DNA of 64,000 bases from Bacteroidota bacterium. Lineage in GTDB: Bacteria > Bacteroidota > Bacteroidia > UKL13-3. The stretch covers positions 2,156 through 66,155 of the forward strand of contig JBAXCN010000006.1 of the NCBI GenBank assembly GCA_037141455.1, written 5' to 3'. The notes beneath the pieces are model-generated. The model was given only the letters and a program-made list of their open reading frames with translations. It made no database searches and was not told the DNA's origin. A program made the translations under genes and the position numbers. Positions 4,027 through 56,444 of the stretch are shown here, piece after piece. Each line of letters begins with the position of its first letter. Positions within the stretch are counted from its first letter, which is position 1.

Positions 4027-5145
4027 TTAAAATCCAAATATTTCTTTCAATTTAGCTTCTAATGCCGCTCCTCTTAGTTTAGTTGCTATAATTTTTCCTT
4101 CTTTATCAATTAAAACTGTATGTGGAATTGATTCGAAGTTATATGTTTTTAAAAGAGGCGTGTTCCATTGCAATAAATCGCTTACATGGTACCAAGTTAA
4201 TTTATCTGCGTTAATTGCATTCATCCATTTTTCTCTGTTATTATCCAAGCTCACCCCTAAAATATCAAAGCCTTTATCGTGGTATTTATTATAAATGGCT
4301 ACTACATTCGGATTTTCTTTTCTGCACGGGCCGCACCAACTAGCCCAAAAATCTATCATAACTACTTTACCTTTTAGGCTACTTAAAGCAAACTCTTTTC
4401 CATAAATATCATTTAATTTTATTTCGGGAGCTTGACTTCCAATTGCAGTTGCAGCCATATTTAAAACCCTATTATGCAATACTTTGGCATACTTTGAGTT
4501 TTGGTTCGATGCATATAGTTTTTTATCTATTGTATTTAAGAACGAAAATTCTGCCTCGGGCATCATAAAGTTGGTTGCAAAAAATGGAACAATATTATTC
4601 ATTTTGTCAATTGCCGATTTCAATTGAATTTCGTTGTTTCTTGTTATACTGTCAAACTCATTTCTTATTTTGTCTTGGTCAGCAGGTGATGGCATGTTAT
4701 TACCATAAATTGCAGCATACTTTTGTTCTAATGCCCTTACTTTTTCAGTACTTTTTGAATTTATAGACATTAATAATTTAATGTCATTGCTTTCAGCTGA
4801 ATTTTTAACAGTGTAATTACTAATATTTTCTGCATCAATCTCTACATCAATGGCACTATTTATGTCCACAGTTAGTATTATATCACCTTTAGGTAATCGT
4901 ATAATACAAAAAGTTTTTTCTTTAACAGTTCCATTTAATTCAAATGTACCATCGCTTAAAATAGTAGAACTATCAAGCAACAAAAGACCAGTATTTGTGA
5001 TTTCTTGTACATTGATTCCTCCTTTTGCATTTTTAATAATCCCGGTAATCGTAAATCCCGATTTATTTGTTCCTTTATCTTTGTTAATGGAATTTCCGCA
5101 AGCCAAAATGCTGCTTATTAAAAGTATAAATATTATGTTTTTCAT
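4027..5145 (-). CDS. TlpA/AhpC-TSA family thiol-disulfide oxidoreductase lipoprotein (DUF4369-like N-terminus)
   Basis: Lipobox LAC; DFWASWCGPCRKENP. Confidence 0.92.
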   Translation of the reverse strand: MKNIIFILLISSILACGNSINKDKGTNKSGFTITGIIKNAKGGINVQEITNTGLLLLDSSTILSDGTFELNGTVKEKTFCIIRLPKGDIILTVDINSAIDVEIDAENISNYTVKNSAESNDIKLLMSINSKSTEKVRALEQKYAAIYGNNMPSPADQDKIRNEFDSITRNNEIQLKSAIDKMNNIVPFFATNFMMPEAEFSFLNTIDKKLYASNQNSKYAKVLHNRVLNMAATAIGSQAPEIKLNDIYGKEFALSSLKGKVVMIDFWASWCGPCRKENPNVVAIYNKYHDKGFDILGVSLDNNREKWMNAINADKLTWYHVSDLLQWNTPLLKTYNFESIPHTVLIDKEGKIIATKLRGAALEAKLKEIFGF

Positions 5146-5146
5146 A

Positions 5147-6604
5147 TTATTGTTTATCTAGTGTTTCTTTTACTAATTTATTTGTAATTTTTGGATCGGC
5201 TTTACCTTTGCTTAATTTCATTACATCGCCCATAAACATTCCTAATAAGCTTTGTTTTCCTGCTTTGTATTCTGCAACTTTTATTGGATTATTTGCAATT
5301 ACTTCGTCAATCCATTTTTGCAATTCGTTGCTATCGCTTTCTTGCACTAAATTTAATGTTAAAGCAATGCTTTCTGCAGTTGAATTTGGGTTTTCAATTA
5401 AGCTAGAAAATACTTTTTGGGCTGCACTATTACTTACTTTTCCTGAGTCAATTAAGTGTATAATTTCAGCAATTTGATTTGGATTTAATACAAATTCTTC
5501 AATAGTTAATGCCTGTTCATTTAAATATGCTTTCACCGAAGTCATAATCCAATTGGCTGCTGCTTTGGTATTTTTAGTATAATTTAAAACTTGTTCAAAG
5601 TAACTAGCAATTTCTTTGCTTTCTATCAATACATTGGCATCGTATTCATTTAATCCAAACTGTTTGGTATATTTTTCAAACAATGCTTTTGGCAATTGCG
5701 GCATTTGTTGTTTTACATCGTCAATAAATGCTTGGGTAACTCGCAAAGGTGGCAAATCGGGCTCAGGAAAATACCTGTAATCGGCTGCACCTTCTTTGCT
5801 TCTAAGTGTAAATGTAGTTCCTTTTTGAGCATCGAAAGAGCGTGTTTCCATTACGATATTATTGCCTGCTTCTATGGCATCAATTTGGCGTTTTACTTCG
5901 TAATCAATTGCTTTTTGAACATTTCTAAAAGAGTTCATGTTTTTTACTTCCACTTTGGTTCCAAAAACTTTGCTTCCTTTTAGCATTACCGAAATATTTG
6001 CATCGCACCTTAAACTTCCTTCTTCCATGTTTCCATCGCAAATATCTAAATACTTTACCAATTGCTTTATTTCAATTAAATACTGATAGGCCTCTTCCCC
6101 ATTTTTCATATCGGGTTCCGAAACTATTTCTATTAAAGGAACTCCTGCTCTATTTAAATCAATTAAAGTATTGTATACATCTTGGTCGTGCATGCTTTTA
6201 CCTGCATCTTCCTCCATATGAATTCTAGTAATTCCTATTCGCTTAGGTTCTTTGTCTTTTAGTTTTATTTCAATAAATCCATTGATACAAATAGGAGTTT
6301 TGTCTTGGGTAATTTGATATCCTTTTGGTAAATCGGCATAAAAGTAATTTTTCCTTGCATAATGTTGCCATTCGGCAATGGTACAATTACAAGCAATACC
6401 CATTTTTACAGCGTATTTTACTACTTCTATATTGTGTTTTGGTAGTGTTCCTGGATGGCCTAAACTTATTGGACTTACTTGAGTATTAGGCATTGCACCA
6501 TATTCATATTCATCGGCACAGTATGCTTTTGTTTTAGTTAGCATTTGTGTATGAACTTCTAATCCTATTACTGTTTCGTATTTATCGTATATTGATTCGC
6601 TCAT
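5147..6604 (-). CDS. gatB: Asp/Glu-tRNA amidotransferase subunit B
   Basis: VIGLEVH, RKNYFYADLPKGYQITQ, EEGSLRCDAN and YRYFPEPDLP motifs. Confidence 0.98.
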   Translation of the reverse strand: MSESIYDKYETVIGLEVHTQMLTKTKAYCADEYEYGAMPNTQVSPISLGHPGTLPKHNIEVVKYAVKMGIACNCTIAEWQHYARKNYFYADLPKGYQITQDKTPICINGFIEIKLKDKEPKRIGITRIHMEEDAGKSMHDQDVYNTLIDLNRAGVPLIEIVSEPDMKNGEEAYQYLIEIKQLVKYLDICDGNMEEGSLRCDANISVMLKGSKVFGTKVEVKNMNSFRNVQKAIDYEVKRQIDAIEAGNNIVMETRSFDAQKGTTFTLRSKEGAADYRYFPEPDLPPLRVTQAFIDDVKQQMPQLPKALFEKYTKQFGLNEYDANVLIESKEIASYFEQVLNYTKNTKAAANWIMTSVKAYLNEQALTIEEFVLNPNQIAEIIHLIDSGKVSNSAAQKVFSSLIENPNSTAESIALTLNLVQESDSNELQKWIDEVIANNPIKVAEYKAGKQSLLGMFMGDVMKLSKGKADPKITNKLVKETLDKQ

Positions 6605-44557: not shown

Positions 44558-46993
44558 TTAGTTAGCTCTGTCAATTTGAGCTAGCATTTTAACTATTCTA
44601 TCTTCTATTTTTTCGCTACTCAATTTCTCTCTCAACCTATCAACCATTATTGGAAAACAAAATGGCGAAGCTTGGCTTAAATTTTTAATGCATATTTCTT
44701 GTTCGTTTATTCTAAGTAAAGCTGTTGTTAACCTTTTTTCTTCTAATTGGTCGTTTAAAACTTCGTTATATGCTTGTTTTAAAAATAAGTTTTCAGGTTC
44801 TATATCATTAAATACATCAAAAAACATTTTACTACTCGCTTGTAAATGTTTGCCTAACATTGGTTTTCCGGGAAACCCAGTAAAAATTAAACCAGCTATT
44901 TTAGCAATATCCCTAAATTTTCTTCTTGCCATTTCAGCAGCATTTAAACTATTCAATAAATCTTGTTGCAAGTCTTCAATACCAAATGCATTATCGCCAA
45001 TTGCTTCTTCTATCGGTATTGGTTCATCGCTCAATAATTCAAACCCATAATCGTTGTAAGCCATGGAAATACTAATTGGTTTAATTACCGAAATTCTATA
45101 AGCAATTAAACTTGCCAATCCTTCGTGTACCAACCTGCCTTCGAAAGGATAGATATAAACATGGTAACCATCTTTTAATTGCAGTTTTTCTATAAGCAAT
45201 TGCTTGTTATTAGGAACCAACGATACTTGTTGCTGAGTTAATAACAATTCGTTTATGGCCAAATATTCATTGTCGGTATTTTTATTGTTTAAAAAGTCGT
45301 TTAAGCCCAACCTCAACATATCTGAAAGTTGACTGCTTAATGGCATTCTACCTCCCTGCCAACTTGGAACCAATGCATTTTCTTTTTTCGATTTTTTAAC
45401 ATAAACAATCAAATTTCTAATTTCAATCAATTCTAATGTTTTGCCTGCAAACCAAAATACAGCACCTGGTTTTAATTTACTAAAAAACCATTCTTCTACA
45501 GTCCCTAAACTTCCACCATTTTGATATTTAATTGATAAAACTGCATCGCTAGCAATGGTTCCAATATTCATTCGGTGCCTTAACGCAATTCGTTTGTTTT
45601 TTACTTCATAAATTCCTTTTTCATCTATTTCTACTTTATAAAATTCTTCATAAGCATAAAGCGCTTTTCCACCTACAGTAATGTAACTTAATAACCACTC
45701 CCACTCCTGTTCATTTATATTCCTAAAACAGTAAGTTGATTGAATAATTGAAAATAATTCCGAAGCATTAAAACCACTGCCAACAGCCAACGTTACCATA
45801 AACTGACTGAGTACATCAAAAGCATTTTGTATTGGAATTTTACTTTCCATTTTTTGCTCTAAAATTGATTGCCGCAAAGCCGAAGCTTCTAATAACTCCA
45901 AGGCGTGAGTTGGTAAAAAATAAATTAACGATTTAGCTCCAGGTTGATGTCCGCTCCTACCTGCTCGTTGCATAAAACGGGCTACTCCTTTGGGCCCACC
46001 TATTTGTATTATTTGGTCAACCGGACGAAAGTCAACCCCTAAATCTAAACTACTCGTACAAACTACAGCTTTTAAATTGCCTTCATGCAAATTATCTTCC
46101 ACCCAAGTTCTAATAGAATTGCTCAATGAACCATGGTGCATGGCTAATTTACCTGCTAAGTCTGCATTTGCTTCTATTAAAGCCCTGTACCATATTTCTG
46201 TTTGTGCACGTGTGTTTGTAAAAATAAGTGTTGTATTGGCGTTTTCTATTATTGGTATTATTTTATCAATTAACTTTAAACCTAAATGCCCAGCCCAAGG
46301 AAAATTTTCAACTTCGTTGGGCAATACCGATATTATTTCAATATTTTTTTCAATATTGGCTTTTATCAATACAGTTTTTTTGTTGGGGTTGTTATTAAAC
46401 GAGTATAATAAAACTTGCGTGGCTTCATCTAAATTACCTATGGTAGCACTTATACCCCAAACTTTTAAATTTGCACAATTATTAACCAAATAAGCAATTG
46501 CCAATTCCATTTGCACTCCCCTTTTATTGCCTATTAACTCATGCCACTCATCAATTACAATTGCTTGTAAGTTTTCAAAAATTTCGTTAGCGTTTTTTTG
46601 CGAAAGCATTAACTGCAAACTTTCGGGAGTAGTAATTAAAAAATCGGGTTGTTTTTTGCTTTGTTTTACCCGCTCGCTATTTGAAGTATCACCCGTTCTT
46701 ATACTTATTTGCCAATCAACATTCATGGCTTTTGCAGCATCTTCTATTGCAAATTGAAGGTCTTTTGTAAGGGCTTTTATAGGACTTATCCAAATGGCTT
46801 TAATCCCTTTTTTATTTTTTAACGTTGCCCCTTCGGCCAATATGGGTAATGCCAAAGCCAATGTTTTACCACTACCAGTTGGCGCGTTGAGCAACCCACT
46901 TTTACCATTAAAATAAGCTTGCCAACATTCCTCTTGAAAAGGAAATGCAGTAAAGTTTTTAAGTTTAAAGTATAAATAAGGCAGATTTATCAT
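44558..46993 (-). CDS. Lhr-like ligase-associated DNA damage response DEXH-box helicase
   Basis: APTGSGKT, DEWHE, HHGSL, SSLDLGVDF, QRAGRSGH and YPFEGRLVHEG motifs. Confidence 0.92.
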   Translation of the reverse strand: MINLPYLYFKLKNFTAFPFQEECWQAYFNGKSGLLNAPTGSGKTLALALPILAEGATLKNKKGIKAIWISPIKALTKDLQFAIEDAAKAMNVDWQISIRTGDTSNSERVKQSKKQPDFLITTPESLQLMLSQKNANEIFENLQAIVIDEWHELIGNKRGVQMELAIAYLVNNCANLKVWGISATIGNLDEATQVLLYSFNNNPNKKTVLIKANIEKNIEIISVLPNEVENFPWAGHLGLKLIDKIIPIIENANTTLIFTNTRAQTEIWYRALIEANADLAGKLAMHHGSLSNSIRTWVEDNLHEGNLKAVVCTSSLDLGVDFRPVDQIIQIGGPKGVARFMQRAGRSGHQPGAKSLIYFLPTHALELLEASALRQSILEQKMESKIPIQNAFDVLSQFMVTLAVGSGFNASELFSIIQSTYCFRNINEQEWEWLLSYITVGGKALYAYEEFYKVEIDEKGIYEVKNKRIALRHRMNIGTIASDAVLSIKYQNGGSLGTVEEWFFSKLKPGAVFWFAGKTLELIEIRNLIVYVKKSKKENALVPSWQGGRMPLSSQLSDMLRLGLNDFLNNKNTDNEYLAINELLLTQQQVSLVPNNKQLLIEKLQLKDGYHVYIYPFEGRLVHEGLASLIAYRISVIKPISISMAYNDYGFELLSDEPIPIEEAIGDNAFGIEDLQQDLLNSLNAAEMARRKFRDIAKIAGLIFTGFPGKPMLGKHLQASSKMFFDVFNDIEPENLFLKQAYNEVLNDQLEEKRLTTALLRINEQEICIKNLSQASPFCFPIMVDRLREKLSSEKIEDRIVKMLAQIDRAN

Positions 46994-47089: not shown

Positions 47090-47123
47090 TAAAAAAAACC
47101 TCCATTGAATAAACAATGAAGGT
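47090..47123 (-). terminator. Terminator closing the RRE/ATP-grasp operon
   Basis: Minus strand AACCTTCATTG...CAATGGAGGTT followed by a T run. Confidence 0.7.
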
Positions 47124-47172
47124 TAATTTATTTATTTGTCAAAGGCTTAAACTTTGAAAAATAATTTTTAAA

Positions 47173-47781
47173 TTATTTTATCAGTGCCAATCCTTCTAAC
47201 GAGGAAGAATCGTTGGGTGCAATTAACAATACTTTGTTAAACAAAAGCTTGGCTTCTTTCAGTTTTGTAAGCCTGTAATTGGTCCACGCCAACATGTGTA
47301 ACCCATCGTAGCTAAATGGGTACAAGTTTACCAAAAGGGTAAAACATTTGTGTGCTTTTTCGTATAATTTTCCGTTGTAATACACCATTCCTAAAGCATA
47401 CAATGCATAGCTGTTATTGGGGTCTATTTTTAAAATGGAATTATATTGGTTGGCTACTTCGTCCCACTCGTTTAAAAGCGAAAGTGGGTATATGTAGCCA
47501 AACTTTGCTTCAACAGAAAAAGGCATTAAATCAACTGCTATTTTATAAAACTTTTTCGAATCGTTATGCAAGCCTGCGCAATAATGTAACCAACCTAATC
47601 GTAAATTTATTTCGTACGATGTTGGGTTATAAACTTCCATTATATTGGCAATGGCTGCTGTGTAATTGGTTTTGTTTTCAAAACCTAAACTTGTGGCAAA
47701 TGCAACTTTTATTTTATCGTCTTGTGCATTGGCAAAGCCTATAAAAAGGCTAAATAGTAATACTAAAATTGTTTTTTTCAT
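47173..47781 (-). CDS. Secreted/periplasmic tetratricopeptide repeat protein
   Basis: Signal peptide; repeated TPR-like helices (LGWLHY, LKIDPNN, LGMVYY, LLIAPND). Confidence 0.85.
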   Translation of the reverse strand: MKKTILVLLFSLFIGFANAQDDKIKVAFATSLGFENKTNYTAAIANIMEVYNPTSYEINLRLGWLHYCAGLHNDSKKFYKIAVDLMPFSVEAKFGYIYPLSLLNEWDEVANQYNSILKIDPNNSYALYALGMVYYNGKLYEKAHKCFTLLVNLYPFSYDGLHMLAWTNYRLTKLKEAKLLFNKVLLIAPNDSSSLEGLALIK

Positions 47782-47790
47782 ATTGGGGTT

Positions 47791-48750
47791 TTATAAATTG
47801 TATTTAATTCCTAAAAATATTGAGTTAAAATTATAATTGTTTGTGGTTATAAAATCTTGTTTTCGTTCAAACTGATAAATAGTATAAATAAAAGCATTAT
47901 TTATAAATTCATATTTTAAATTTATGTTAGTTCTGTCAACGGTTTTATCAATGGAGTTATAAATAATGTATCCATCTTGGTCAGAAAAATTGCGGGCTGT
48001 AGTGTAAAAATAATCTGCGTTAATGGAAAGTTGATCGTTAATAATATAGGAAATGGAGGGTTTAATTAATGTACTTAAATCGTTGTTGTTATTAAAATGA
48101 AATACCCCCAAACCAAACACCAATTTTTCATTGTTTTTTATATCGTAAAACAATTCGCCACCTGCCATATACTGGTTATGTGCTTCTTTTAAATTATTTA
48201 ATTGGCTAAAAGCCAAAGCAGGTTTTAAATAAAGTTTATTTAACCTAAAAGTACTACTAATTGAGAAAAAATAATTGTTATTGGTAATATTTTCTGAAGG
48301 AATTACTTGACTTGGAGGTGCAGGTGGAATAGGTGGTGGAGGTACACTTGCCAATGTTTTGCTTTTTACATAAATGTAGGAGCCTGCAAAATTAAATTTT
48401 AAATTATTGTTGTGTTTGTACTCAAAATTAGCATAATAACTATGCTGGTTTAAATTGCCCCACCACATACTTTGCGATAAATAATTATAAGCATGAAACA
48501 TTAAAAGTTTTTTACTTAATTGGTGTTGCAATCCTATTTGGCTATTGTTTAAGTTGCCAATTGTATCTATTTCCGAACTAAACTTTACCCCTGTTTCTAT
48601 ATACAATTGGTTAAACAAATTGGTTTTACCTAACCTAAAATTATTGGTAAGTTTATAAACTTCGTAATTGCTTTTTGCTCCAAATAATATTTGCGCTTTA
48701 ATAGCATTTACATACATTAATAACAGTACAATTATTATAATATTTCGCAT
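47791..48750 (-). CDS. Putative outer-membrane beta-barrel protein with a Pro-rich loop
   Basis: Signal peptide, alternating aromatic strands, C-terminal FLGIKYNL; VPPPPIPPAPPS. Confidence 0.65.
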   Translation of the reverse strand: MRNIIIIVLLLMYVNAIKAQILFGAKSNYEVYKLTNNFRLGKTNLFNQLYIETGVKFSSEIDTIGNLNNSQIGLQHQLSKKLLMFHAYNYLSQSMWWGNLNQHSYYANFEYKHNNNLKFNFAGSYIYVKSKTLASVPPPPIPPAPPSQVIPSENITNNNYFFSISSTFRLNKLYLKPALAFSQLNNLKEAHNQYMAGGELFYDIKNNEKLVFGLGVFHFNNNNDLSTLIKPSISYIINDQLSINADYFYTTARNFSDQDGYIIYNSIDKTVDRTNINLKYEFINNAFIYTIYQFERKQDFITTNNYNFNSIFLGIKYNL

Positions 48751-50936
48751 TGGGCCACAGTTATTTTATTGGTTTTTTTTATCTCTATGGAGTTAATATT
48801 TCCTTCCATTATATGTATTTTAGCTTTGGTATCGTTACTGGTATTAAATAGCGTTTTTAGTTTTACCTCACTATTTAAAACTATGTTTTTAGTGTATAAA
48901 TAATCATCAATTTCAGAATAATTTAAAATGTATTGTGCTTTTAAAGTATTTTTAAAAGGCAATATAAAATCGTTGAAAAACCTTTTTGAAATATTAAAAA
49001 CTTGGTATACTGGCAACGAGTCTTCTATTACCATGTCTTTATAAAAACTAAAAACTACTTTGTTTAACACTGTATAAAAAGTATATAAAAAACTATTTTT
49101 ATTTCCTTCAAAATTGGTAAAATAAAACTTAATTCCATCGTTAACAAACCAAGCCAACGCCTTTGTTTTATAACAATAAATGTATGAATGGTTATTAATA
49201 TCTGTAAATACTTCCCATTTTACAAACTCGTTTTTATTGCCTGTTTTTATGTTCCAATTAATTTTTTTGCCGGGTATAAAGTGGAAAGCATTTTTTAATA
49301 AATTGTTCAATGAAGCATTGGCAACTATTTCATTTTCTAACGGAATTCCACTTGAATAATAAATGTAATTGTCGTTTCTTTTAACTACATAATTACTTAA
49401 CGGATATTTTATAGTAGTGGCTTGTATTACCGAGGTTGATTGCAATTGAAAATGTATATGTGGCTCAGGCGAACGACCTGAATTGCCATTGTTTGCCAAC
49501 ATTTGTCCTTTGTACACATAATCGTTAATGGCAACTTTAAAACTATTTTTTTTAATGTGACTAATTTTAGAATACAACTGCTCCGCGTGCTTTATTATAA
49601 TAGTATTGCCCCAGTTTTGTTGCATGTTTACATCACCTACCAAGTTATCGTCAATGCCATCAATTATATCTATTACATACCCATCAGCCGGAGCTAAAAT
49701 TGGCAGCGCGTAACAGTAATAATCTTCTAAGTTGTTTCCTGGCAAACGAAATGTTTTAAGTTCATCGTCTTTTATTACAAAATCCCAAGCATATTGGTAT
49801 TCGTTTTTATGGGTAATGCTTCCATTTTGTCCCTGCGAAATAATCCATTCACCATAAAAAGGCAATCCTATTTTAAAATATACTTCATCGTTGTATCTTT
49901 CTTTTTCGTTTAGGTACCTATACAAGTTTTTTTCAGGTGAAAACAACTGAACTTGAGTCAGTTTTAATTTATCAGCTTTAACTCTATTATATAAAAAATA
50001 AAGCACAATTATAACCATTATATTAAATGGAAGCGAAAATACCGATAACCCCAAAACATTTAAAACTGTGGCTGATGCAGCTATAATTATTGAAATGATT
50101 GGTGCAATAATTATTACCATTAAAAACGAATAAGCATTTGCCAATAAAAAATAACCACCAATTGCTATTGCAGCCAAAATAAAGTTAAAGCCTATGTACG
50201 AATAATTGATTAAATCAATGTTTCCTTGTAGTAAAATAAAAAAATAATAACCACTAATGAAACCAACAATTGAAAGTAAAAACGCAATTCTGGAAAATAT
50301 TAAAAGACCAATTACTATTAAAGAGCCTGCAATAATATTGTATTGAAAAATAATTGCTCCCAACGATTTCAAATAAACTTCAACCAAATGTGGCAATACA
50401 ATACTATCGTAAAAATGATAGGCAGTTACCATTTCCGAACCACCAATTCTTAGTAAATCGTTGTAAACAAAAATACCTCTGTCGTTATTTATTAATGGCG
50501 CAAAATGTGGCGTAGCCAATTGAATTAACCATACTACAAACAAAAAAGGCAAACTTAAATAAGGTAATTTTTTGTTTGCTTGCAAGCCTGCAATTACAAT
50601 AGTAATTATAAATGTTACAAAACTAATAAATGCAGTAAAAACAACTAATTGCCAGCTTGGCTGAAAAGTATAACCTATAAATAAGCCAACCAATAAACTA
50701 TTAAAACCATAGTACCCTTTTGCTACATAAGTTTGGTTAAAGTTTAAAATATGTGCAAATACATTTGTTAAAACTACAGCTAATAGACCATAAACCCCTA
50801 CATATACATCAATAAATGATGCAATTAAAACAAAGAAGGCCAACCAATAACTATCAGCTAAAAACAATTGGGAATAGCTGTTAAGCAATCCATTTGTATG
50901 GTTTTTTAAATGATATTTAAGGTCTATTAATTTCAA
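48735..50936 (-). CDS. Urea-transporter-family membrane domain fused to an M23 peptidase and a C-terminal domain
   Basis: NSYSQLF, GYYGFNSLLVG, LSLPF, GAIIFQ, GFNFIL and FSLPF (UT repeats); H...YAWDF, APADG, NWGN and GNSGRSPEPHIHFQ (M23). Confidence 0.85.
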   Translation of the reverse strand: MKLIDLKYHLKNHTNGLLNSYSQLFLADSYWLAFFVLIASFIDVYVGVYGLLAVVLTNVFAHILNFNQTYVAKGYYGFNSLLVGLFIGYTFQPSWQLVVFTAFISFVTFIITIVIAGLQANKKLPYLSLPFLFVVWLIQLATPHFAPLINNDRGIFVYNDLLRIGGSEMVTAYHFYDSIVLPHLVEVYLKSLGAIIFQYNIIAGSLIVIGLLIFSRIAFLLSIVGFISGYYFFILLQGNIDLINYSYIGFNFILAAIAIGGYFLLANAYSFLMVIIIAPIISIIIAASATVLNVLGLSVFSLPFNIMVIIVLYFLYNRVKADKLKLTQVQLFSPEKNLYRYLNEKERYNDEVYFKIGLPFYGEWIISQGQNGSITHKNEYQYAWDFVIKDDELKTFRLPGNNLEDYYCYALPILAPADGYVIDIIDGIDDNLVGDVNMQQNWGNTIIIKHAEQLYSKISHIKKNSFKVAINDYVYKGQMLANNGNSGRSPEPHIHFQLQSTSVIQATTIKYPLSNYVVKRNDNYIYYSSGIPLENEIVANASLNNLLKNAFHFIPGKKINWNIKTGNKNEFVKWEVFTDINNHSYIYCYKTKALAWFVNDGIKFYFTNFEGNKNSFLYTFYTVLNKVVFSFYKDMVIEDSLPVYQVFNISKRFFNDFILPFKNTLKAQYILNYSEIDDYLYTKNIVLNSEVKLKTLFNTSNDTKAKIHIMEGNINSIEIKKTNKITVAQCEIL

Positions 50937-50961
50937 TTTTAAATGATAAAATGCGCTTTAT

Positions 50962-52320
50962 TTAAAGTTTAAATTCTTTTAAATATGCTGGAGTTTCTTC
51001 TAAACTATTCATGTACTCCAAAGTTTCTTTTTTACGAATTAAATGAGGTTTACCATCCATGTCTATTATTACTACATTTGGCCTCATAGATATAAATTGC
51101 ATCCACTGAGTCATGTTGTAAGCACCTACAGTATGCACTACCACATTATCGCCTTTTTTCATTGGTGGTAAAGTTACATTTTCTCTTATTACATCAATGT
51201 TCATACACAATGGGCCATAAATTACTGAATCTTCGGTATAATGGCTAAACTCTTGCGCTGGTGATATTTTATGTTCGTACCAAAACGAAGTAAATAATAA
51301 ATTTACACCAAAATCCATAATGGTAGCTTTGCGTCCATCGCTTAATCGTTTGTTAGCCAAAACAGTTCCCAATAAATAACCTGCATCATCAACCAACGAA
51401 CGGCCACTTTCTAATATTAATAATGGTAATTCATCTTTACTGTAATCCGAATTTAATAAAGCCGAACAGATAGCTTCTGCATAATCATCAAAACTTGGCA
51501 CCGAATCGGCACCCATTAAATAAGAACCTTTAAGCGTATTGCGCGAAGCAAACCCTCCTCCCATATCAATATAAGTAATGTTTTTGCCAAACTTAGTTTT
51601 TATATGATAAGCCAAATCGGATAACTTGGTAGCTGCAACAGCATAAGCACTTGGGGTTAACATAAATGTTCCAATATGCGTATGCAAGCCTATTAAATCC
51701 ATTTTATCGGTTAAAATAATTTTGTTAATGGCATCCCAAGCTTGACCACTTTCATAATTAAATCCAAACCTATCCCACATTGGGTAAACTCCAGTATCCA
51801 TGTTTACTCTAATGGCTACTTTAGGTCGCTTTTTTAACTCTTCGGTTAACTCAATAATTCTGTATAGTTCATCTAAATGATCAATATGAATCATTGACTC
51901 ATTGTTAATGGCCAGTACTAAATCTTCATCAGTTTTATCAGGCCCATTAAATATTATTTTATTGCCGGGTACTCCGTTTAATAAAGCTTTTTTATACTCG
52001 AATCCCGAAACCACTTCTGACCAACTTCCTTCTTGGTGAAAAACGCTACAAATGGCATTGTTATAATGTGTTTTATAACTCCATGCAAACTGCACCTTTG
52101 GATACCTTGTAGTAAATGCACGTACTGCATCTTTGTATGTTTTTCTAATAGTTTGCTCACTCATTACGAATAATGGCGAACCAAATTCTGCTATTAAATC
52201 TTTTACTTTTGCACCATCTATATTGGTAAATGGAGTGTACTCAGTTCTAGTACCGTACTTGTTCATTACGCCAGTATTTAATTTTTTAATTACTGGTCTT
52301 TCATATCTTAGTTTTTCCAT
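50962..52320 (-). CDS. Fold-III PLP-dependent decarboxylase (LysA/Orn-DAP-Arg family), substrate uncertain
   Basis: SYKT, EVVSGFE, FNGPDK, HTHIG, DMGGGF, ESGR, GPLCMNID and GAY motifs. Confidence 0.9.
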   Translation of the reverse strand: MEKLRYERPVIKKLNTGVMNKYGTRTEYTPFTNIDGAKVKDLIAEFGSPLFVMSEQTIRKTYKDAVRAFTTRYPKVQFAWSYKTHYNNAICSVFHQEGSWSEVVSGFEYKKALLNGVPGNKIIFNGPDKTDEDLVLAINNESMIHIDHLDELYRIIELTEELKKRPKVAIRVNMDTGVYPMWDRFGFNYESGQAWDAINKIILTDKMDLIGLHTHIGTFMLTPSAYAVAATKLSDLAYHIKTKFGKNITYIDMGGGFASRNTLKGSYLMGADSVPSFDDYAEAICSALLNSDYSKDELPLLILESGRSLVDDAGYLLGTVLANKRLSDGRKATIMDFGVNLLFTSFWYEHKISPAQEFSHYTEDSVIYGPLCMNIDVIRENVTLPPMKKGDNVVVHTVGAYNMTQWMQFISMRPNVVIIDMDGKPHLIRKKETLEYMNSLEETPAYLKEFKL

Positions 52321-52335
52321 TGTTTTTATGTTTAA

Positions 52336-52440
52336 GCCTCTGGCTGCTGGCTGCTGGCCTCTAGCTAATTTATTTTACTTGGTTGAATATTATTTTACTT
52401 TTTGTATTTGTTAGAAGCCAGAGGCCAGAAGCTAGAAGCC
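52336..52440. repeat. Inverted heptamer arrays (GCCTCTG/GCTGCTG/GCTGCTG/GCCTCTA ... GTTAGAA/GCCAGAG/GCCAGAA/GCTAGAA)
   Basis: Read directly; same family as 3922-4022. Confidence 0.75.
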
Positions 52441-52442
52441 AA

Positions 52443-53489
52443 CTATAGCTCCCCTACCGTTGATATCTGTTCAAATTCTTTTAAATCTACAATCATATCG
52501 TACGAGTAACGAATAAACATTTTACCTATTTCATAATCGCCAAATGGTTCAACAGGTAAGTTTAAAGCTAATTTTACTAGTGCTTCTGGTTGGTTATGTC
52601 CGCAGCCGGCAGCTAAGTATACCCAAGCAGGAAAACGTGGATTTATTTCTAATAAATAATATTTGTTTTCGGCTGTTTTAATAAACTCTAACTCCATTCC
52701 GCCTCGCCACTTCGATGACGAAATAACTTGTTTAGCAATATTTACCAACTCATCGTCATCTAATGAAATACCCGCCCAAGCTTTGCCTTTGTCGGTAATA
52801 AATAACTTGCGCATGGGCACTGCACTAATGGCATTTCCTTTTCCATCGCCCAATGCTGTAACGTTTACCTCACTTCCAAAAACATATTCTTGTATAATAA
52901 TAGGCAAGCCCCACTTAGTGCTTAGTTTATTAAAATAATTCCCAACTTGTTCGGCATTGTATGCAATATATGCTTCATAAAACTTGCCTTTAACCACCAT
53001 TGGGTAAGTAAACTCACTGGCAATAGTTGGTATTTCGGCAGTGCTAAACATCATTTTACTAAATGGAACATGTACGCCATGTTTTTCGCCAAATTCATAC
53101 AAGTTGGCTTTATGTCTTTCGTCAAATTGCTCTTGTGTTGGTAAAAACATGTTTATAGCTAATTCTGATTTAAGCCTATTTTCTATTTTCATAAAATTAG
53201 CTAATTCAGCATCAAAATTTGGAATAATTACATCAATCATTTCTTGCACATTTATGTAGTTCAATCGTTCCATTAATGAATCAATTCCAGAACCTGGCAA
53301 AGGAATTTGGTAAGATTTATCAACCAAATTGTGCATGTATAATCCTGGCTCCAATGTTTCATAACTCAAGCCTATAATCCTTACATCAAAATCTTTGCTT
53401 TCTTTTAAAGCACGTATTACTGGTATTCCTGGGCCAGGACTATCAATATTGTTTAATCCCGATACTGCTACCGTTATTTTTTGTTTCAT
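52443..53489 (-). CDS. ATP-grasp carboxylate-amine ligase
   Basis: YPMVVKG, IIQEYV.G.E, GMELE and LLEINPRFPAW motifs. Confidence 0.9.
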   Translation of the reverse strand: MKQKITVAVSGLNNIDSPGPGIPVIRALKESKDFDVRIIGLSYETLEPGLYMHNLVDKSYQIPLPGSGIDSLMERLNYINVQEMIDVIIPNFDAELANFMKIENRLKSELAINMFLPTQEQFDERHKANLYEFGEKHGVHVPFSKMMFSTAEIPTIASEFTYPMVVKGKFYEAYIAYNAEQVGNYFNKLSTKWGLPIIIQEYVFGSEVNVTALGDGKGNAISAVPMRKLFITDKGKAWAGISLDDDELVNIAKQVISSSKWRGGMELEFIKTAENKYYLLEINPRFPAWVYLAAGCGHNQPEALVKLALNLPVEPFGDYEIGKMFIRYSYDMIVDLKEFEQISTVGEL

Positions 53490-53510
53490 CACTTTTGTTT
53501 TAAATAAAAA

Positions 53511-53759
53511 TTATTCAGTTTCCTCTGCAACTTGGTTGTTTTGCAACATCATTACAAAATCGTAATAATCTTTTTCAAAAGTTGATTCATCGGCATTATA
53601 TTTAGTTAAAATAGTTTTTCTAATTTCGTCTTTGCCTTTATCGTCTTTTAGCATTCTTATTATCTCTAAACCAATGGGATTAGTGCTAAATGAATCGCCT
53701 GTAGTAGGATTAAAAATAAACCCTGATTCACTGATTGCTACATTCTTTTTTATTTTCAT
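53511..53759 (-). CDS. Stand-alone PqqD-family/RRE peptide-binding protein
   Basis: About 82 aa: GFIFNPTTGDSFSTNPIGLEII.ML...I...Y..D....EKD..DF...L, the three-strand plus three-helix RRE pattern. Confidence 0.85.
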   Translation of the reverse strand: MKIKKNVAISESGFIFNPTTGDSFSTNPIGLEIIRMLKDDKGKDEIRKTILTKYNADESTFEKDYYDFVMMLQNNQVAEETE

Positions 53760-53960
53760 AATTGTACGTTTAAAAAATGCTAAATTATTCAATACAACAT
53801 TGCATTTTTATTAAAATGATTCTGTTATAATATTTAAAATATTTGTTATAAAATTAGGTTTATTGCTTTTGGTTGTTGAGGAAAACATTCGCTGAAATAA
53901 GTTCGAAGTGGTGTTTAGGCTCCCCTCAAAGATTAATTTCAGTTAATGGTAAACAATAAT

Positions 53961-54195: not shown

Positions 54196-54786
54196 TTAAA
54201 TCAATTGATCCAAAGGAATTCTTGGCTTTATTGGCAACAATTTGTATTCACTCACTGAAAAGTTTGTAATTTGTTTAAACTGATTGCTTAAATACTGAAC
54301 ACTGCTATAACCCATTTGGTATGAAATTTCGCTTAAGGTCATTTCGTTATAACTTAGTAGTTCCTTCACCCTTTCAATTTTAACTAATATAATATATTTT
54401 TCTAATGTAACCGGGGCATTATCGCTAAACAATTTACTCAAAAAACTATAGGGTTGTGCTAGCTTGTCGCTTAAATAATCTGAATTTCTTATTATAGTAT
54501 TTAAATTATTTCCGTAATAAATCATTTCTAAAACTGCTACTTTTATTGCTTCAAATAAGGCAGTTTCTTTATCATATATTAAATCAAAACCTAACTCTTG
54601 AAGCTTTTTTTGAAAGTTTATAAAATCGAATTTACCTTCTTTTAATTGAACTTGTGCAGCACCTAAATATACTTTTTCAATTAAAATATTTGGAATAGTT
54701 CCAAGCAAATTTTGTACTAACGAAATACACCTAGAACTAACCATGTTCCTAATTTGTAATACAATATATTTATTAGTATCATTCAT
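54196..54786 (-). CDS. AraC family regulator with HMA-like N-terminus
   Basis: IRNMVSSRC; KIERVKELL, LSEI...MGYSSVQYLSNQFK motifs. Confidence 0.9.
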   Translation of the reverse strand: MNDTNKYIVLQIRNMVSSRCISLVQNLLGTIPNILIEKVYLGAAQVQLKEGKFDFINFQKKLQELGFDLIYDKETALFEAIKVAVLEMIYYGNNLNTIIRNSDYLSDKLAQPYSFLSKLFSDNAPVTLEKYIILVKIERVKELLSYNEMTLSEISYQMGYSSVQYLSNQFKQITNFSVSEYKLLPIKPRIPLDQLI

Positions 54787-54905: not shown

Positions 54906-56444
54906 ATGGACAAACGTAAACATTTAATTGAATTAAGAGAACAGTCAAAACTTGGTGGAGGAATTGATAGAATTGCTTCTCAGCATAAAAAAGGGAAATT
55001 AACGGCCAGAGAACGTATTCACTTTTTGTTTGATGAAGGTAGTTTTGAAGAAATTGGTGCATTTGTAATGCACCGCTCTAAAGATTTTGGAATGGAAAGC
55101 CAACAGTTTCTTGGAGATGGCGTAATAACAGGCTATGGCACAATCAATGGCAGATTTGTTTATGCTTTTTCGCAAGATTTTACTGTTTTTGGTGGTTCGC
55201 TTTCCGAAACCCATGCCGAAAAAATATGTAAACTAATGGACTTAGCCATGAAAAATGGTGCTCCTTTAATTGGTTTAAACGACAGTGGTGGAGCTAGAAT
55301 ACAGGAAGGTGTAGTTTCTCTTGGTGGTTATGCTGATATTTTTTATAGAAATACCATGGCAAGTGGAGTTATTCCTCAATTATCAGCAATTATGGGTCCT
55401 TGTGCTGGTGGTGCCGTTTATAGCCCAGCCATTACCGATTTTATAATGATGGTAGAAAATACTAGTTATATGTTTGTAACTGGTCCAAATGTGGTTAAAA
55501 CAGTTACGCACGAAGAAGTTAGTAGTGAAGATTTAGGTGGAGCTTCGGTTCATTCAACCAAAAGCGGTGTGGCGCATTTTACTGCTGCAAACGAAATTGA
55601 TTGTATCAGTCAACTTAAAAAACTGATTAGTTATATGCCCGATAATTGCGAAGAGAAAGCAATTGATTTAAGTTATGAATTGACAGATGAAAACAGGTTA
55701 AAACTTGCTGAAATTATTCCAGAAAATGCCAATCAACCATACGATATAAGAGACGTAATAACTGAAGTTATTGATGAAGATAGTTTTTATGAAGTTCATA
55801 AAAATTATGCTGAAAATATTGTAGTTGGTTTTGCACGTTTGGCTGGTAAAAGTATAGGAATTGTTGCCAATCAACCGGCATACTTAGCTGGTGTTTTAGA
55901 TATACATTCATCGCAAAAAGCAGCTCGTTTTGTTCGTTTCTGCGATTGCTTTAATATTCCATTATTGGTTTTTGAAGATGTACCTGGTTTTTTACCAGGA
56001 ACCGACCAAGAGTGGAATGCCATTATTACCAACGGAGCAAAACTTTTGTATGCATTTTGCGAAGCAACTGTTCCGCGTATTACAGTTATTACGCGTAAAG
56101 CTTATGGTGGCGCTTACGATGTGATGAATTCAAAACACATTGGAGCTGATATGAATTTTGCTTGGCCTAGTGCAGAAATTGCGGTAATGGGAGCTAAAGG
56201 TGCCGCTGAAATTATATTTAAAAAGGACATTGATAAAGCTGCCGATCCAATAGTTGAACTTGCAGCAAAAGAAAAAGAATATGCGGGTATTTTTGCAAAT
56301 CCATATAGAGCTGCCGAGCGTGGTTTTATTGATGAAGTAATTTTACCAGAAGAAACTAGAATAAAACTGATTAAAGCATTTAAAATGCTTGAAAATAAAG
56401 TAGTGAATTTGCCAAGGAAAAAACATGGTAATATTCCGCTTTAG
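54906..56444 (+). CDS. pccB: Acyl-CoA (propionyl/methylmalonyl-CoA) carboxyltransferase beta subunit
   Basis: [38 protein letters not shown] and KKHGNIPL motifs. Confidence 0.93.

What the first reader, a model, noticed from the sequence alone, without database searches (positions are those of the whole stretch)
47173..53759. Six-gene RRE + ATP-grasp + PLP decarboxylase + urea-transporter/M23 fusion + barrel + TPR operon with no visible precursor
Seen: six co-oriented, closely spaced genes closed by one terminator. Established: stand-alone PqqD/RRE proteins bind leader peptides in RiPP pathways, ATP-grasp enzymes form amide bonds, fold-III PLP enzymes decarboxylate basic amino acids, and M23 enzymes are Zn endopeptidases. 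I know of no characterised pathway with this combination. Inference: a biosynthesis-and-export line in which a peptide-tethered substrate is ligated, decarboxylated, cleaved by the membrane-anchored M23 and passed out through the channel, TPR and barrel. An envelope-modification system is the alternative.
Basis: partly seen in the sequence, partly recalled or inferred. Interest (0 to 1): 0.88.

Follow-up and report, generated by a model that had tools for sequence, protein, structure and literature searches.

The report
Conserved Bacteroidota RRE–ligase–decarboxylase–channel operon
A six-gene operon of unknown function, conserved across many Bacteroidota, pairs a lasso-type peptide-recognition protein with no precursor peptide gene; the motif such proteins bind sits instead on the tail of the operon's own decarboxylase.

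Summary
Six co-oriented minus-strand genes (53759→47173) encode a PqqD-type RRE, an ATP-grasp ligase, a fold-III PLP decarboxylase, a urea-transporter (UT)–M23–unknown-domain fusion, a 14-strand outer-membrane barrel and a secreted TPR protein.

- **Conservation:** the same order holds in all 36 genome loci and 80 metagenome loci I mapped, as far as each contig reaches. The ATP-grasp orthologue occurs in 89 of 401 genomes sampled from the class.
- **Decarboxylase:** it is not housekeeping LysA, which lies elsewhere in the genome. Its closest solved relative is FigC/FslC, but FigC's citrate-binding residues are replaced.
- **No precursor:** no precursor-peptide gene is conserved near the cluster in 87 loci.
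- **New lead:** the RRE is most like lasso B1 proteins, which bind [Y/W]xxPx[L/V/I] leaders. That motif, (Y/F)E(R/K/S)Px(I/L/V), sits on a roughly 20-residue N-terminal extension in 88 of 88 decarboxylases. The RRE's predicted tyrosine-binding Asp is present in 139 of 143 Tyr-type loci and 0 of 13 Phe-type loci. This is essentially one clade, so only 2–3 independent changes.
- **Topology:** it places M23 and the unknown domain in the cytoplasm.

Product and substrate remain unknown. I found no paper describing this gene combination.

The parts
53511..53759 (-). Discrete PqqD-type RiPP recognition element (RRE), 82 aa from the conserved Met.
   Evidence: Pfam PqqD 4.4e-9. The profile's best PDB hits are lasso B1 proteins: TbiB1 9.8e-12, TfuB1 1.3e-6. 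N27 is kept in 157/157 and F68 in 152/157; D64 is kept in 139 of 143 Tyr-type loci. It is the only PqqD-family match in the genome.
52443..53492 (-). ATP-grasp ligase, 349 aa, of the CPS-like/PRK12767 type.
   Evidence: Pfam ATPgrasp_Ter and ATP-grasp_3. NCBIfam PRK12767 models score far below their cut-offs. The profile's best PDB hits are the carbamoyl-phosphate synthetase large subunit (2.8e-16) and 2pn1. There are 50 invariant columns across 36 sequences.
52321..52442 (.). Intercistronic spacer with G+C-rich inverted repeats. It is probably a small dispersed repeat, and it is long only in same-genus loci.
   Evidence: The ATP-grasp to decarboxylase gap is 122-303 nt in the 5 same-genus loci, against -32 to 73 nt in the 12 others. 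Short blastn hits to its ends occur on 8 other contigs. Rfam gives no significant match.
50962..52320 (-). Fold-III (alanine-racemase-fold) PLP decarboxylase, 452 aa, a FigC-like paralogue of LysA.
   Evidence: Pfam Orn_Arg_deC_N and Orn_DAP_Arg_deC. Best PDB hit is FigC/FslC 7kh2 at 192.5 bits, then DAPDC at 157.8 and BtrK at 91. PLP-Lys K83 is kept in 88/88. Pocket residues W347, C372, M373, I375 and Q405 are kept in 88/88.
52237..52320 (-). N-terminal extension of the decarboxylase (residues 1-28). It carries (Y/F)E(R/K/S)Px(I/L/V) at residues 6-11 (52288-52305) and G..NK(F/Y)G at residues 17-23.
   Evidence: FigC and DAPDC align only from residue 29-34 onward. The motif is present in 88 of 88 full-length decarboxylases. 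P9 and K21 are kept in 88/88 and E7 in 87/88. It is the only occurrence of the extended motif in the whole genome.
49995..50888 (-). Urea-transporter-family (UT) membrane domain (residues 17-314) of the 733-aa fusion protein (gene 48735-50936).
   Evidence: Pfam UT 1.6e-54, covering profile positions 4-290 of 292. PDB hits are UT-A, UT-B and dvUT. It is the only UT match in the genome. The K/R distribution fits N-in/C-in.
49422..49874 (-). M23 metallopeptidase domain (about residues 355-505), preceded by a K/R-rich linker with the conserved motif FSPEKNLY.
   Evidence: Pfam M23. H376, D385, H460, H493 and H495 are invariant in 16 sequences. AF2 model pLDDT 88.3. Foldseek best hits are the DipM, ShyA, Csd and LytM domains.
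48738..49421 (-). C-terminal domain (about residues 506-733) of the fusion, mostly beta, with no recognised family or fold match.
   Evidence: No Pfam family at E<=5 beyond a chance hit. No Foldseek hit listed beyond the M23 part. The Atlas feature search gave only sub-threshold hits. Conserved residues include P532, G556, N582, G611 and D656.
47791..48750 (-). Secreted 14-strand outer-membrane beta-barrel, 319 aa.
   Evidence: AF2 pLDDT 82.6. Foldseek matches OmpG (9.3e-11) and FadL. It is homologous to the 270-310-aa proteins that follow the TPR gene in other classes (hhalign 97.2%, E 3.2e-11). Its start overlaps the fusion gene's end by 10-19 nt in 13 of 13 loci.
47173..47781 (-). Secreted TPR protein, 202 aa, with a signal-peptide-like N-terminus.
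   Evidence: Pfam TPR_2 3e-16 and other TPR models. Present in 34 of 37 genome loci. The hydrophobic N-terminus followed by A-Q is seen in the alignment.
47097..47124 (-). Terminator-like hairpin (11 pairs) plus a T-run, closing the operon.
54196..54786 (-). AraC-family regulator with an unassigned N-terminal domain. It is a frequent but not constant upstream neighbour.
   Evidence: Pfam HTH_18 and HTH_AraC. A homologue at >=85% coverage is present in 28 of 117 loci. The N-terminal 100 aa have no Pfam family.

Best explanation
This is a self-contained module, conserved across Bacteroidota, that builds a small amide-linked amine in the cytoplasm and hands it to a dedicated route across both membranes.

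**Shown**
- The six gene families and their fixed order.
- A decarboxylase of the FigC/SbnH/BtrK/MccE kind with an invariant, non-citrate pocket.
- A discrete RRE of the lasso-B1 kind.
- An intact M23 catalytic set.
- A 14-strand barrel.

**Inferred**
1. The ATP-grasp enzyme joins a carboxylate to an amino acid through its side chain, leaving a free alpha-amino-acid end.
2. The decarboxylase removes that alpha-carboxylate, as its characterised relatives do on conjugated amino acids.
3. The RRE does not bind a free precursor peptide. It binds the YxxPx(I/L/V) tail of the decarboxylase, and so docks the enzymes together at the cytoplasmic face of the membrane protein.
4. The cytoplasm-facing M23 domain cuts an amide bond to release or process the product at the mouth of the UT-type channel.
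5. The TPR protein and the barrel carry the product on through the periplasm and outer membrane.
For: **Order and coupling.** The same order was found in 16/16, 20/20 and 80/80 loci as far as contigs reach. Flanking genes are not conserved. Gene ends are tightly spaced or overlap.

**Decarboxylase.** The best solved relative is FigC at 192.5 bits. FigC's T327, Y331, C354, M355 and Y383 are kept. Its citrate binders H357, R387 and N389 are I, Q and M here, and those residues are invariant in 82-88 of 88. The FigC paper describes a subfamily (FigC, SbnH, AcsE) that acts on conjugated amino acids rather than in polyamine synthesis; BtrK and MccE appear in its tree (PMC7857480, passages read).

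**RRE.** The top PDB hits are TbiB1, TfuB1, PbaB1, PqqD and LppB. Discrete RREs of this kind bind [Y/W]xxPx[L/V/I/F/A] (PMC13381572 and PMC10368454, passages). N27, D64 and F68 have the same spacing (37 and 4) as LppB N33, D70 and F74.

**Motif on the decarboxylase tail.** It is present in 88/88. Only 2 conserved instances exist in 1,829 aligned positions of five families; the other lies inside the M23 fold. Tyr-type tails go with D64 in 139/143 loci. Phe-type tails go with D64 in 0/13, where the position instead reads Y, S, H, N or E.

**No precursor ORF.**

**Topology.** K/R content is 3.2 at the N-terminus and 6.2 in the post-membrane linker, and the central loop is net acidic.

**M23.** H376, D385, H460, H493 and H495 are invariant.

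**Barrel.**

**No urease.** The best match scores 31 bits against a 680-bit cut-off.
Against: - No substrate, product or binding has been observed.
- The covariation is phylogenetically clustered. All Phe-type loci lie in one 13-row clade on a FastTree of the ATP-grasp protein. Only 2-3 independent changes are needed, and the sign test cannot reach significance.
- The motif is short (three fixed positions), and I noticed it after looking at several termini and linkers.
- One degenerate locus (L056) keeps the tail motif but has no PqqD gene.
- The four closest stand-alone M23 paralogues that I could read (of five fetched) have signal-peptide-like N-termini, so a cytoplasmic M23 is unusual. The topology is inferred, not measured.
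- A UT pore is narrow, so only a very small product could pass.
- The ATP-grasp's nearest solved relatives activate bicarbonate or carbamate, so it may not be a peptide or amide ligase at all.
Confidence: 0.4

Rival explanations
1. This is a true RiPP pathway whose precursor peptide is encoded elsewhere in the genome. The RRE binds a free YxxPxL-type leader. The ATP-grasp and decarboxylase modify the core, and M23 removes the leader. The motif on the decarboxylase tail is either coincidental or a regulatory decoy.
For: The RRE is of the lasso-B1 type with its leader-binding residues kept. RRE plus protease plus ATP-dependent amide-forming enzyme mirrors lasso B1/B2/C logic (PMC10368454, introduction passage). 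Unlinked precursors are known in RiPP biology (my recollection, not from any call).
Against: No conserved small ORF was found in 87 loci with up to 8-10 kb of flank. The window's genome has no small ORF with the extended tail motif; only the specific motif was searched, not every possible leader. The invariant decarboxylase pocket, and decarboxylase identities of 48-98% across all mapped loci, suggest one fixed product rather than a variable peptide. A UT pore is too narrow for a peptide.
Confidence: 0.2
2. This is an envelope or peptidoglycan modification system. M23 is a wall endopeptidase anchored by the UT domain. The ATP-grasp (Ddl-like) and the LysA-like decarboxylase make or alter a diamino-acid-containing wall or surface component. 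TPR and barrel are envelope partners.
For: M23, Ddl-like ATP-grasp and LysA-like enzymes all have wall-related relatives. The closest stand-alone M23 paralogues are secreted. An ECF sigma, anti-sigma and Spy-like gene trio lies upstream in 3 of 37 loci; I identified these by eye from the sequences, without a family search.
Against: The M23 domain follows the last UT helix with no further hydrophobic segment. A linker with about 6 K/R comes directly after the membrane. The decarboxylase is closer to FigC than to LysA. The ATP-grasp matches Ddl only weakly (E 2.7e-5 at best, against 2.8e-16 for CPS).
Confidence: 0.15
3. This is an uptake or small-solute system. Barrel, TPR and UT channel bring in urea or a small amide, and the cytoplasmic enzymes process it (M23 as an amidase; the CPS-like ATP-grasp acting on carbamate or bicarbonate).
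For: UT proteins are passive, bidirectional channels for urea-like solutes (established knowledge). The ATP-grasp profile is closest to CPS and biotin-carboxylase domains, including urea amidolyase.
Against: The genome (99.95% complete) has no urease alpha subunit; the best match scores 31 bits against 680. This scheme gives no role to an RRE or to a FigC-type decarboxylase. There is no biotin carrier or allophanate hydrolase among the six genes.
Confidence: 0.1

Closest known systems
Lasso peptide maturation: discrete RRE B1, protease B2, ATP-dependent lactam synthetase C
   Same: It has a stand-alone PqqD-type RRE whose nearest solved relatives are TbiB1 and TfuB1. The RRE's Asn, Asp and Phe leader-binding positions are kept. 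A YxxPx(I/L/V) motif is present. The RRE sits in one operon with a peptidase and an ATP-dependent amide-forming enzyme.
   Different: There is no precursor gene. The peptidase is M23, not transglutaminase-like. The ATP enzyme is an ATP-grasp, not asparagine-synthetase-like. The motif sits on a 452-aa enzyme. A PLP decarboxylase, a UT channel, a TPR protein and a barrel are added.
FigA/FigC (FslA/FslC) rhizoferrin route and SbnH/AcsE: ligate first, then decarboxylate the conjugated amino acid
   Same: The decarboxylase's best solved relative is FigC, with T327, Y331, C354, M355 and Y383 kept. A ligase gene sits next to it. The logic is to make an amide on the side chain and then remove the alpha-carboxylate (PMC7857480).
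   Different: The ligase is an ATP-grasp, not an NIS synthetase. FigC's citrate binders H357, R387 and N389 are I, Q and M here. There is no MFS exporter or TonB receptor among the six genes. An RRE and an M23 domain are present.
Butirosin BtrI/BtrJ/BtrK: carrier protein, ATP-grasp, PLP decarboxylase
   Same: An ATP-grasp ligase and a fold-III decarboxylase work in sequence on a tethered amino acid. BtrK is among the PDB relatives at 91-92 bits.
   Different: There is no acyl carrier protein. The small protein here is an RRE, not a carrier. Its C-terminus is not conserved.
Peptidase-containing ABC transporters (PCATs)
   Same: A cytoplasm-facing peptidase domain is fused to the membrane exporter, so that cleavage and export are coupled. 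This is a functional resemblance only, and recalled.
   Different: The membrane part is a passive UT-fold channel, not an ABC transporter. The peptidase is M23, not C39. No cargo peptide is known.
TPR-plus-barrel outer-membrane export pairs (AlgK/AlgE, PgaA, BcsC)
   Same: A periplasmic TPR protein and an outer-membrane barrel are encoded together at the end of a biosynthetic operon. In most genera the barrel protein itself carries a roughly 100-aa N-terminal segment that looks TPR-like by eye.
   Different: The barrel has 14 strands and is OmpG/FadL-like. There is no glycosyltransferase or polymer synthase in the operon.

Membership tests
PqqD-type RiPP recognition element (discrete, lasso-B1-like) | Sequence membership in the PqqD/RRE family | tested here: met
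   Pfam PF05402 at 36.5-37 bits against a 23.4-bit cut-off. Profile hits are TbiB1 9.8e-12, TfuB1 1.3e-6, PbaB1 0.004 and PqqD 0.008.
PqqD-type RiPP recognition element (discrete, lasso-B1-like) | Leader-binding residues: Asn at the end of beta3, Tyr-binding Asp and pocket-dividing Phe in alpha3 | tested here: met
   N27 is kept in 157/157 and F68 in 152/157. D64 is kept in 139/143 Tyr-type loci. The spacing of 37 and 4 equals that of LppB N33, D70 and F74 as described in PMC13381572. The mapping rests on alignment to TbiB1/TfuB1 and on spacing, not on a structure.
PqqD-type RiPP recognition element (discrete, lasso-B1-like) | Winged-helix fold (three strands, three helices) | not tested
RiPP biosynthetic gene cluster | A precursor peptide gene (leader plus core) in or beside the cluster | tested here: not met
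   No conserved small ORF was found in 17 loci within 1.5 kb or in 87 loci over their whole length. No small ORF with the tail motif exists in the genome.
Lasso peptide pathway | Transglutaminase-like B2 protease and asparagine-synthetase-like cyclase | tested here: not met
   Neither family was found among the six proteins.
N-citrylornithine decarboxylase (FigC/FslC) | NCBIfam NF041039 above its cut-off, and the citrate-binding residues H357, R387 and N389 | tested here: not met
   It scores 228.7 bits against a 500-bit cut-off. The three residues are I375, Q405 and M407 here, kept in 88, 88 and 82 of 88.
Diaminopimelate decarboxylase LysA | TIGR01048 above its cut-off, and being the genome's only copy | tested here: not met
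   It scores 218.3 bits against 297.9. A separate gene on contig C87 scores 370.9 bits.
Fold-III (alanine-racemase-fold) PLP decarboxylase | Both domains present, the PLP-binding Lys and the active-site Cys | tested here: met
   Both Pfam domains are present. K83 and C372 are kept in 88/88 and align with FigC K63 and C354 (PMC7857480).
Urea transporter (UT) family | Full-length UT fold with the two LP..(S/T)LPF repeats | tested here: met
   Pfam covers 4-290 of 292 positions at 185.5 bits. P125, F131 and F304 are invariant. Whether urea is the solute is not testable here. The genome has no urease.
Peptidase M23 | Zinc ligands and catalytic histidines (H..D and HxH motifs), and the fold | tested here: met
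   H376, D385, H460, H493 and H495 are invariant in 16 sequences. Foldseek hits the M23/LytM domains. The H-to-D spacing is 8 residues, longer than the classical HxxxD. The assignment of roles to these residues is recalled.
Peptidase M23 | Extracytoplasmic location (usual for the family) | tested here: inconclusive
   Topology inference puts it inside the cell. The closest stand-alone paralogues have signal peptides. There is no experimental topology.
Carrier-tethered ligate-decarboxylate systems (BtrI/J/K, LysW/LysX) | A carrier protein: an ACP, or a small protein with a conserved C-terminal Glu | tested here: not met
   There is no ACP family in the operon. The C-terminus of the small protein varies: it ends in E, D, N, R, L, K, Q or H across 17 sequences.
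Graspetide/microviridin ATP-grasp maturases | A graspetide-type (MdnB/MdnC-like) ATP-grasp with an adjacent precursor | tested here: not met
   Nearest solved relatives are CPS, 2pn1 and the biotin carboxylases. No graspetide ligase appears among the 60 of 65 hits listed. There is no precursor.

The most novel reading that the evidence does not exclude
The decarboxylase's own N-terminal tail is a leader peptide carried in cis. The RRE presents this tail to the ATP-grasp ligase and to the M23 peptidase. The amino-acid-derived product is then built on an invariant residue of the tail (E7 or K21), decarboxylated by the same protein's active site, and cut off by M23 at the mouth of the UT channel. 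Counting from Tyr6 as lasso position -17, residue 23, a Gly in 86 of 88 sequences, would be core position +1. This would be a scaffold-peptide pathway in which the scaffold is part of an enzyme, and the first natural case of an RRE reading an enzyme's tail rather than a separate precursor.
Probability: 0.15. Interest if true: 0.9.

Novelty: new variant of a known kind. Interest (0 to 1): 0.72.

Why it matters
RREs are used as the main handle for finding RiPP gene clusters, on the assumption that a precursor peptide is nearby. Here a lasso-type RRE sits in a widespread operon with no precursor. The operon is in 89 of 401 sampled genomes of the class and 50 of 199 genera. Beyond that, at least 150 protein clusters at 50% identity match the M23–C-terminal-domain profile at E 1.4e-74 or better.

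The RRE's cognate motif appears instead on an enzyme. If binding is confirmed, RREs can serve as protein–protein docking modules, and genome-mining rules would need to allow for that.

The operon also contains two other unusual features. One is an M23 peptidase predicted to face the cytoplasm. The other is a UT-fold channel in a bacterium without urease, which points to an unknown small solute.

Decarboxylase identity is 48–98% across all mapped loci, which argues for a fixed physiological product worth identifying.

Tried and rejected
**Complex prediction.** A fold of the ATP-grasp protein with the RRE (alignments A5 and A4) scored 0.01 against a mark of 0.32. The verdict was 'no answer', so it counts neither for nor against binding. 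That used the only job, so the more relevant pair, RRE with the decarboxylase tail, could not be folded.

**Carrier hypothesis.** I tested whether the small protein is a LysW-like carrier with a conserved C-terminal Glu. I rejected this because the C-terminus is variable.

**Fused forms of the RRE.** A search among longer proteins found none. The tool itself calls this weak evidence.

**C-terminal domain of the fusion.**
- Pfam at E<=5 gave only a chance hit.
- Foldseek on the M23+CTD model listed only M23 matches.
- The Atlas feature search gave scores of 0.81 and 0.78, below the level the tool treats as meaningful.

**RNA elements.** Rfam found nothing significant in the window region (one hit at E 0.68) and nothing at gathering score in 7 related loci.

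**Expression.** No RNA holder was listed among public runs.

**Defence system.** No PADLOC family matched any of the six proteins.

**Literature.**
- 'PqqD' + 'ATP-grasp' + 'decarboxylase' + 'urea transporter', at least 3 of 4 terms: 1 unrelated review.
- 'urea transporter' + 'M23' + 'ATP-grasp': 0 papers.
- 'PqqD' + 'ATP-grasp' + 'diaminopimelate decarboxylase': 0 papers.
- 'RiPP recognition element' + 'ATP-grasp' + 'Bacteroidetes' + 'M23', at least 3 of 4 terms: 3 papers held the terms, 2 were listed, and by title and abstract start neither concerns this operon.

**Wider genome sample for covariation.** It added one further Tyr/Asn locus and no new Phe-type lineage.

Full report
**What is there.** Six ORFs lie head to tail on the minus strand: 53511-53792, 52443-53492, 50962-52320, 48735-50936, 47791-48750 and 47173-47781. 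Gaps between them are 18, 122, 25, -16 and 9 nt. A hairpin with a T-run at 47124-47097 follows the last gene. The scan found no more terminator-like sites than shuffles do, so only its position counts.

Pfam names five of the six:
- PqqD
- ATP-grasp (ATPgrasp_Ter, ATP-grasp_3)
- both domains of the fold-III PLP decarboxylases
- UT (residues 17-314) plus M23 (412-500) in one 733-aa protein
- TPR

The fifth protein has no family. It folds (pLDDT 82.6) into a signal helix and 14 long strands, and it matches OmpG and FadL. The window is about 30% G+C. A 95%-identical locus is titled as a Chitinophaga pinensis MAG, phylum Bacteroidota.

**Is it a unit?** Yes.
- The fusion protein is full length in 27 of 61 relatives.
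- In 16 of 16 fetched loci all genes stand in the same order.
- A profile of the M23 plus C-terminal part found full-length matches in 28 of 401 genomes spread over the phylum. In 20 of 20 loci fetched from these the order is kept as far as contigs reach.
- A metagenome scan with the ATP-grasp alignment found 563 relatives. The best 80 loci all keep the order.
- In the class, 89 of 401 genomes and 50 of 199 genera carry the ATP-grasp orthologue at E<=1e-60.
- At least 150 protein clusters at 50% identity match the M23–CTD profile at E<=1.4e-74, most of them 690-750 aa.

Flanking genes are not conserved. An AraC-type regulator is upstream in 28 of 117 loci.

In loci from other classes the TPR gene comes directly after the fusion gene, and a 270-310-aa secreted protein follows it. 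That protein is homologous to the barrel (hhalign 97.2%, E 3.2e-11). All six families therefore travel together.

Two loci are damaged. In L042 the fusion gene is split and the TPR gene lies 7.5 kb away. L056 lacks the PqqD gene and the C-terminal domain.

**The decarboxylase.** It is not housekeeping LysA. It scores 218 bits against a 297.9-bit cut-off, and a true lysA (370.9 bits) lies on contig C87. Its best solved relative is FigC/FslC, the N-citrylornithine decarboxylase (192.5 bits). DAPDC (157.8) and BtrK (91) come next.

The FigC paper (PMC7857480; abstract and passages read) describes a subfamily (FigC, SbnH, AcsE) that is not involved in polyamine synthesis and decarboxylates amino acids already conjugated through their side chain. 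BtrK and MccE appear in its tree.

In the alignment (chain numbering is the paper's plus 19) T327, Y331, C354, M355 and Y383 are kept. The residues modelled to hold citrate (H357, R387, N389) are I375, Q405 and M407 here. These and W347 are invariant or nearly so in 88 sequences. I infer one fixed substrate: a conjugated amino acid with a neutral or hydrophobic partner, not citrate.

**The ligase.** Its profile is closest to the ATP-binding core of carbamoyl-phosphate synthetase (2.8e-16) and to 2pn1. Biotin carboxylases, PurD and Ddl follow. This says 'ATP-grasp' but not which acid and amine it joins.

**The membrane protein.**
- The UT match is full length. It is the genome's only UT, and the genome has no urease.
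- The M23 catalytic set is invariant, and the model (pLDDT 88.3) matches LytM-type domains.
- Residues 506-733 form a conserved, mostly beta domain with no recognised relative.
- UT proteins have both ends in the cytoplasm; this is established for mammalian UTs and is recalled here. K/R residues concentrate at the N-terminus (3.2 per sequence) and in the linker after the last helix (6.2), while the central loop is net acidic. No further hydrophobic segment follows.

I therefore place M23 and the unknown domain in the cytoplasm. This is unusual. The four closest stand-alone paralogues I could read, of five fetched, have signal-peptide-like N-termini.

**The RRE and the missing precursor.** The PqqD profile's best solved relatives are the discrete RREs TbiB1 (9.8e-12), TfuB1 (1.3e-6) and PbaB1 (0.004), then PqqD itself and LppB. 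Such RREs bind a [Y/W]xxPx[L/V/I/F/A] leader motif (PMC13381572 and PMC10368454, passages).

In LppB, N33 fixes the proline kink, D70 hydrogen-bonds the tyrosine, and F74 divides the two pockets. Here N27 (157/157), D64 and F68 (152/157) have the same spacing.

No small ORF is conserved near the cluster in 87 loci. It is also the genome's only PqqD.

Looking at termini and linkers of the operon's own proteins, I found that the decarboxylase has an N-terminal extension of about 20 residues relative to FigC and DAPDC. It carries (Y/F)E(R/K/S)Px(I/L/V), followed by G..NK(F/Y)G.
- The motif is in 88 of 88 full-length sequences.
- Among 1,829 aligned positions of five families there are only two conserved instances. 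The other lies inside the M23 fold.
- It is unique in the genome.

Where the tail has Tyr, RRE position 64 is Asp in 139 of 143 loci, and Asn in the other 4. Where it has Phe, position 64 is never Asp in 13 loci: Tyr 6, Ser 4, then His, Asn and Glu once each. One further locus with a broken RRE gene was left out.

This fits loss of the hydroxyl partner, but it is weak statistically. On a FastTree of the ATP-grasp protein, all 10 Phe-type loci among the 83 rows fall in one 13-row clade. That clade also holds two Tyr/Asn loci and one Tyr/Asp locus. Only 2-3 independent changes are needed, and the sign test cannot reach 0.05. A wider sample of the class added no new Phe lineage.

**Reading.** The best-supported picture is a cytoplasmic ligate-then-decarboxylate pair held together by an RRE that reads the decarboxylase's tail. 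The pair works at the inner face of a UT–M23 membrane protein. A TPR protein and a 14-strand barrel complete a path outward.
- *Shown:* gene content, order, conservation, family membership and conserved residues.
- *Inferred:* the chemistry, the RRE–tail contact, the side of the membrane on which M23 sits, and the direction of transport.

Rivals are an unlinked precursor peptide, an envelope-modification role, and an uptake role. Each is listed with its evidence.

**Novelty.** Four literature searches found no paper on this gene combination. Subscription journals and supplements were not covered. Each part belongs to a known family. The arrangement meets the defining features of none of the systems it resembles: there is no precursor, no ACP, no NIS synthetase and no lasso B2 or C. 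I rate it a new variant of a known kind, with a bolder reading (a leader carried in cis on an enzyme) kept open.

Noticed in passing
window 52321-52442; also L035, L036, L039, L040: In the five same-genus loci the gaps ATP-grasp to decarboxylase (122-303 nt) and decarboxylase to fusion gene (25-647 nt) are much longer than in other genera. The window's spacer has G+C-rich inverted repeats (GCTGGC / GCCAGA runs) whose ends hit 8 other contigs. It looks like a small dispersed repeat inserted between cistrons.
   Followed up: partly
window 49905-49946 (fusion protein residues about 331-344): The cytoplasmic linker between the UT domain and M23 holds a strongly conserved linear motif, Q..FSPEKNLY.(Y/F)(L/…)N. 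Q330, S333, E335 and Y339 are invariant in 16 sequences. It is a possible docking site for a partner.
   Followed up: no
window 54196-54786 (-): This is an AraC-family regulator whose N-terminal 100 residues match no Pfam family. A homologue lies near the cluster in 28 of 117 loci. In the window a hairpin-like stretch separates it from the operon.
   Followed up: partly
L030, L031, L037 (oriented coordinates about 4600-6250, just upstream of the PqqD gene): Three genes precede the operon on the same strand in these loci. By eye they look like an ECF sigma factor, a small membrane anti-sigma-like protein and a Spy/CpxP-like periplasmic protein, which hints at envelope-stress control. No family search was run on them.
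   Followed up: no
L042 (G075): The fusion gene is split into two ORFs (358 and 393 aa) at the UT/M23 junction. The TPR gene lies about 7.5 kb downstream, beyond inserted genes. This copy may be decaying or naturally split.
   Followed up: no
L056 (G147): This is a variant or decaying cluster. It has no PqqD gene, the fusion protein ends at 521 aa without the C-terminal domain, and the intergenic gaps are long. A masked stretch and a GIY-YIG-like ORF lie downstream. The decarboxylase still has YEKPII.
   Followed up: partly
L141-L144 (G014, G372, G318, G380): These are stand-alone M23 proteins of 319-328 aa with a signal peptide and an N-terminal domain of about 130 aa. They are the closest paralogues of the fused M23 domain (E 1e-28 to 1e-45 against the fusion protein or its M23–CTD profile) and share its long H…D spacing.
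   Followed up: partly
window 47791-48750 compared with L025-L034: The barrel protein of the window's genus (297-319 aa) lacks the roughly 100-aa N-terminal segment, TPR-like by eye, that other genera have (380-462 aa). It carries a proline-rich insert (PPPPIPPAPPS) in one loop.
   Followed up: no
window 44558-46993 (-) and 54906-56444 (+): The flanking genes are ordinary. One is a ligase-associated DEXH helicase (TIGR04121, 1066 bits, above its cut-off). The other is a carboxyltransferase (Carboxyl_trans 4.3e-194; the mmdA-type model scores below its cut-off).
   Followed up: no
L043, L045, L050 (upstream of the PqqD gene); L046, L047 (downstream): A 280-320-aa secreted protein family lies beside the cluster in several loci from other classes. 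Its C-terminal end looks like a type IX secretion sorting domain (recalled resemblance, not tested).
   Followed up: no
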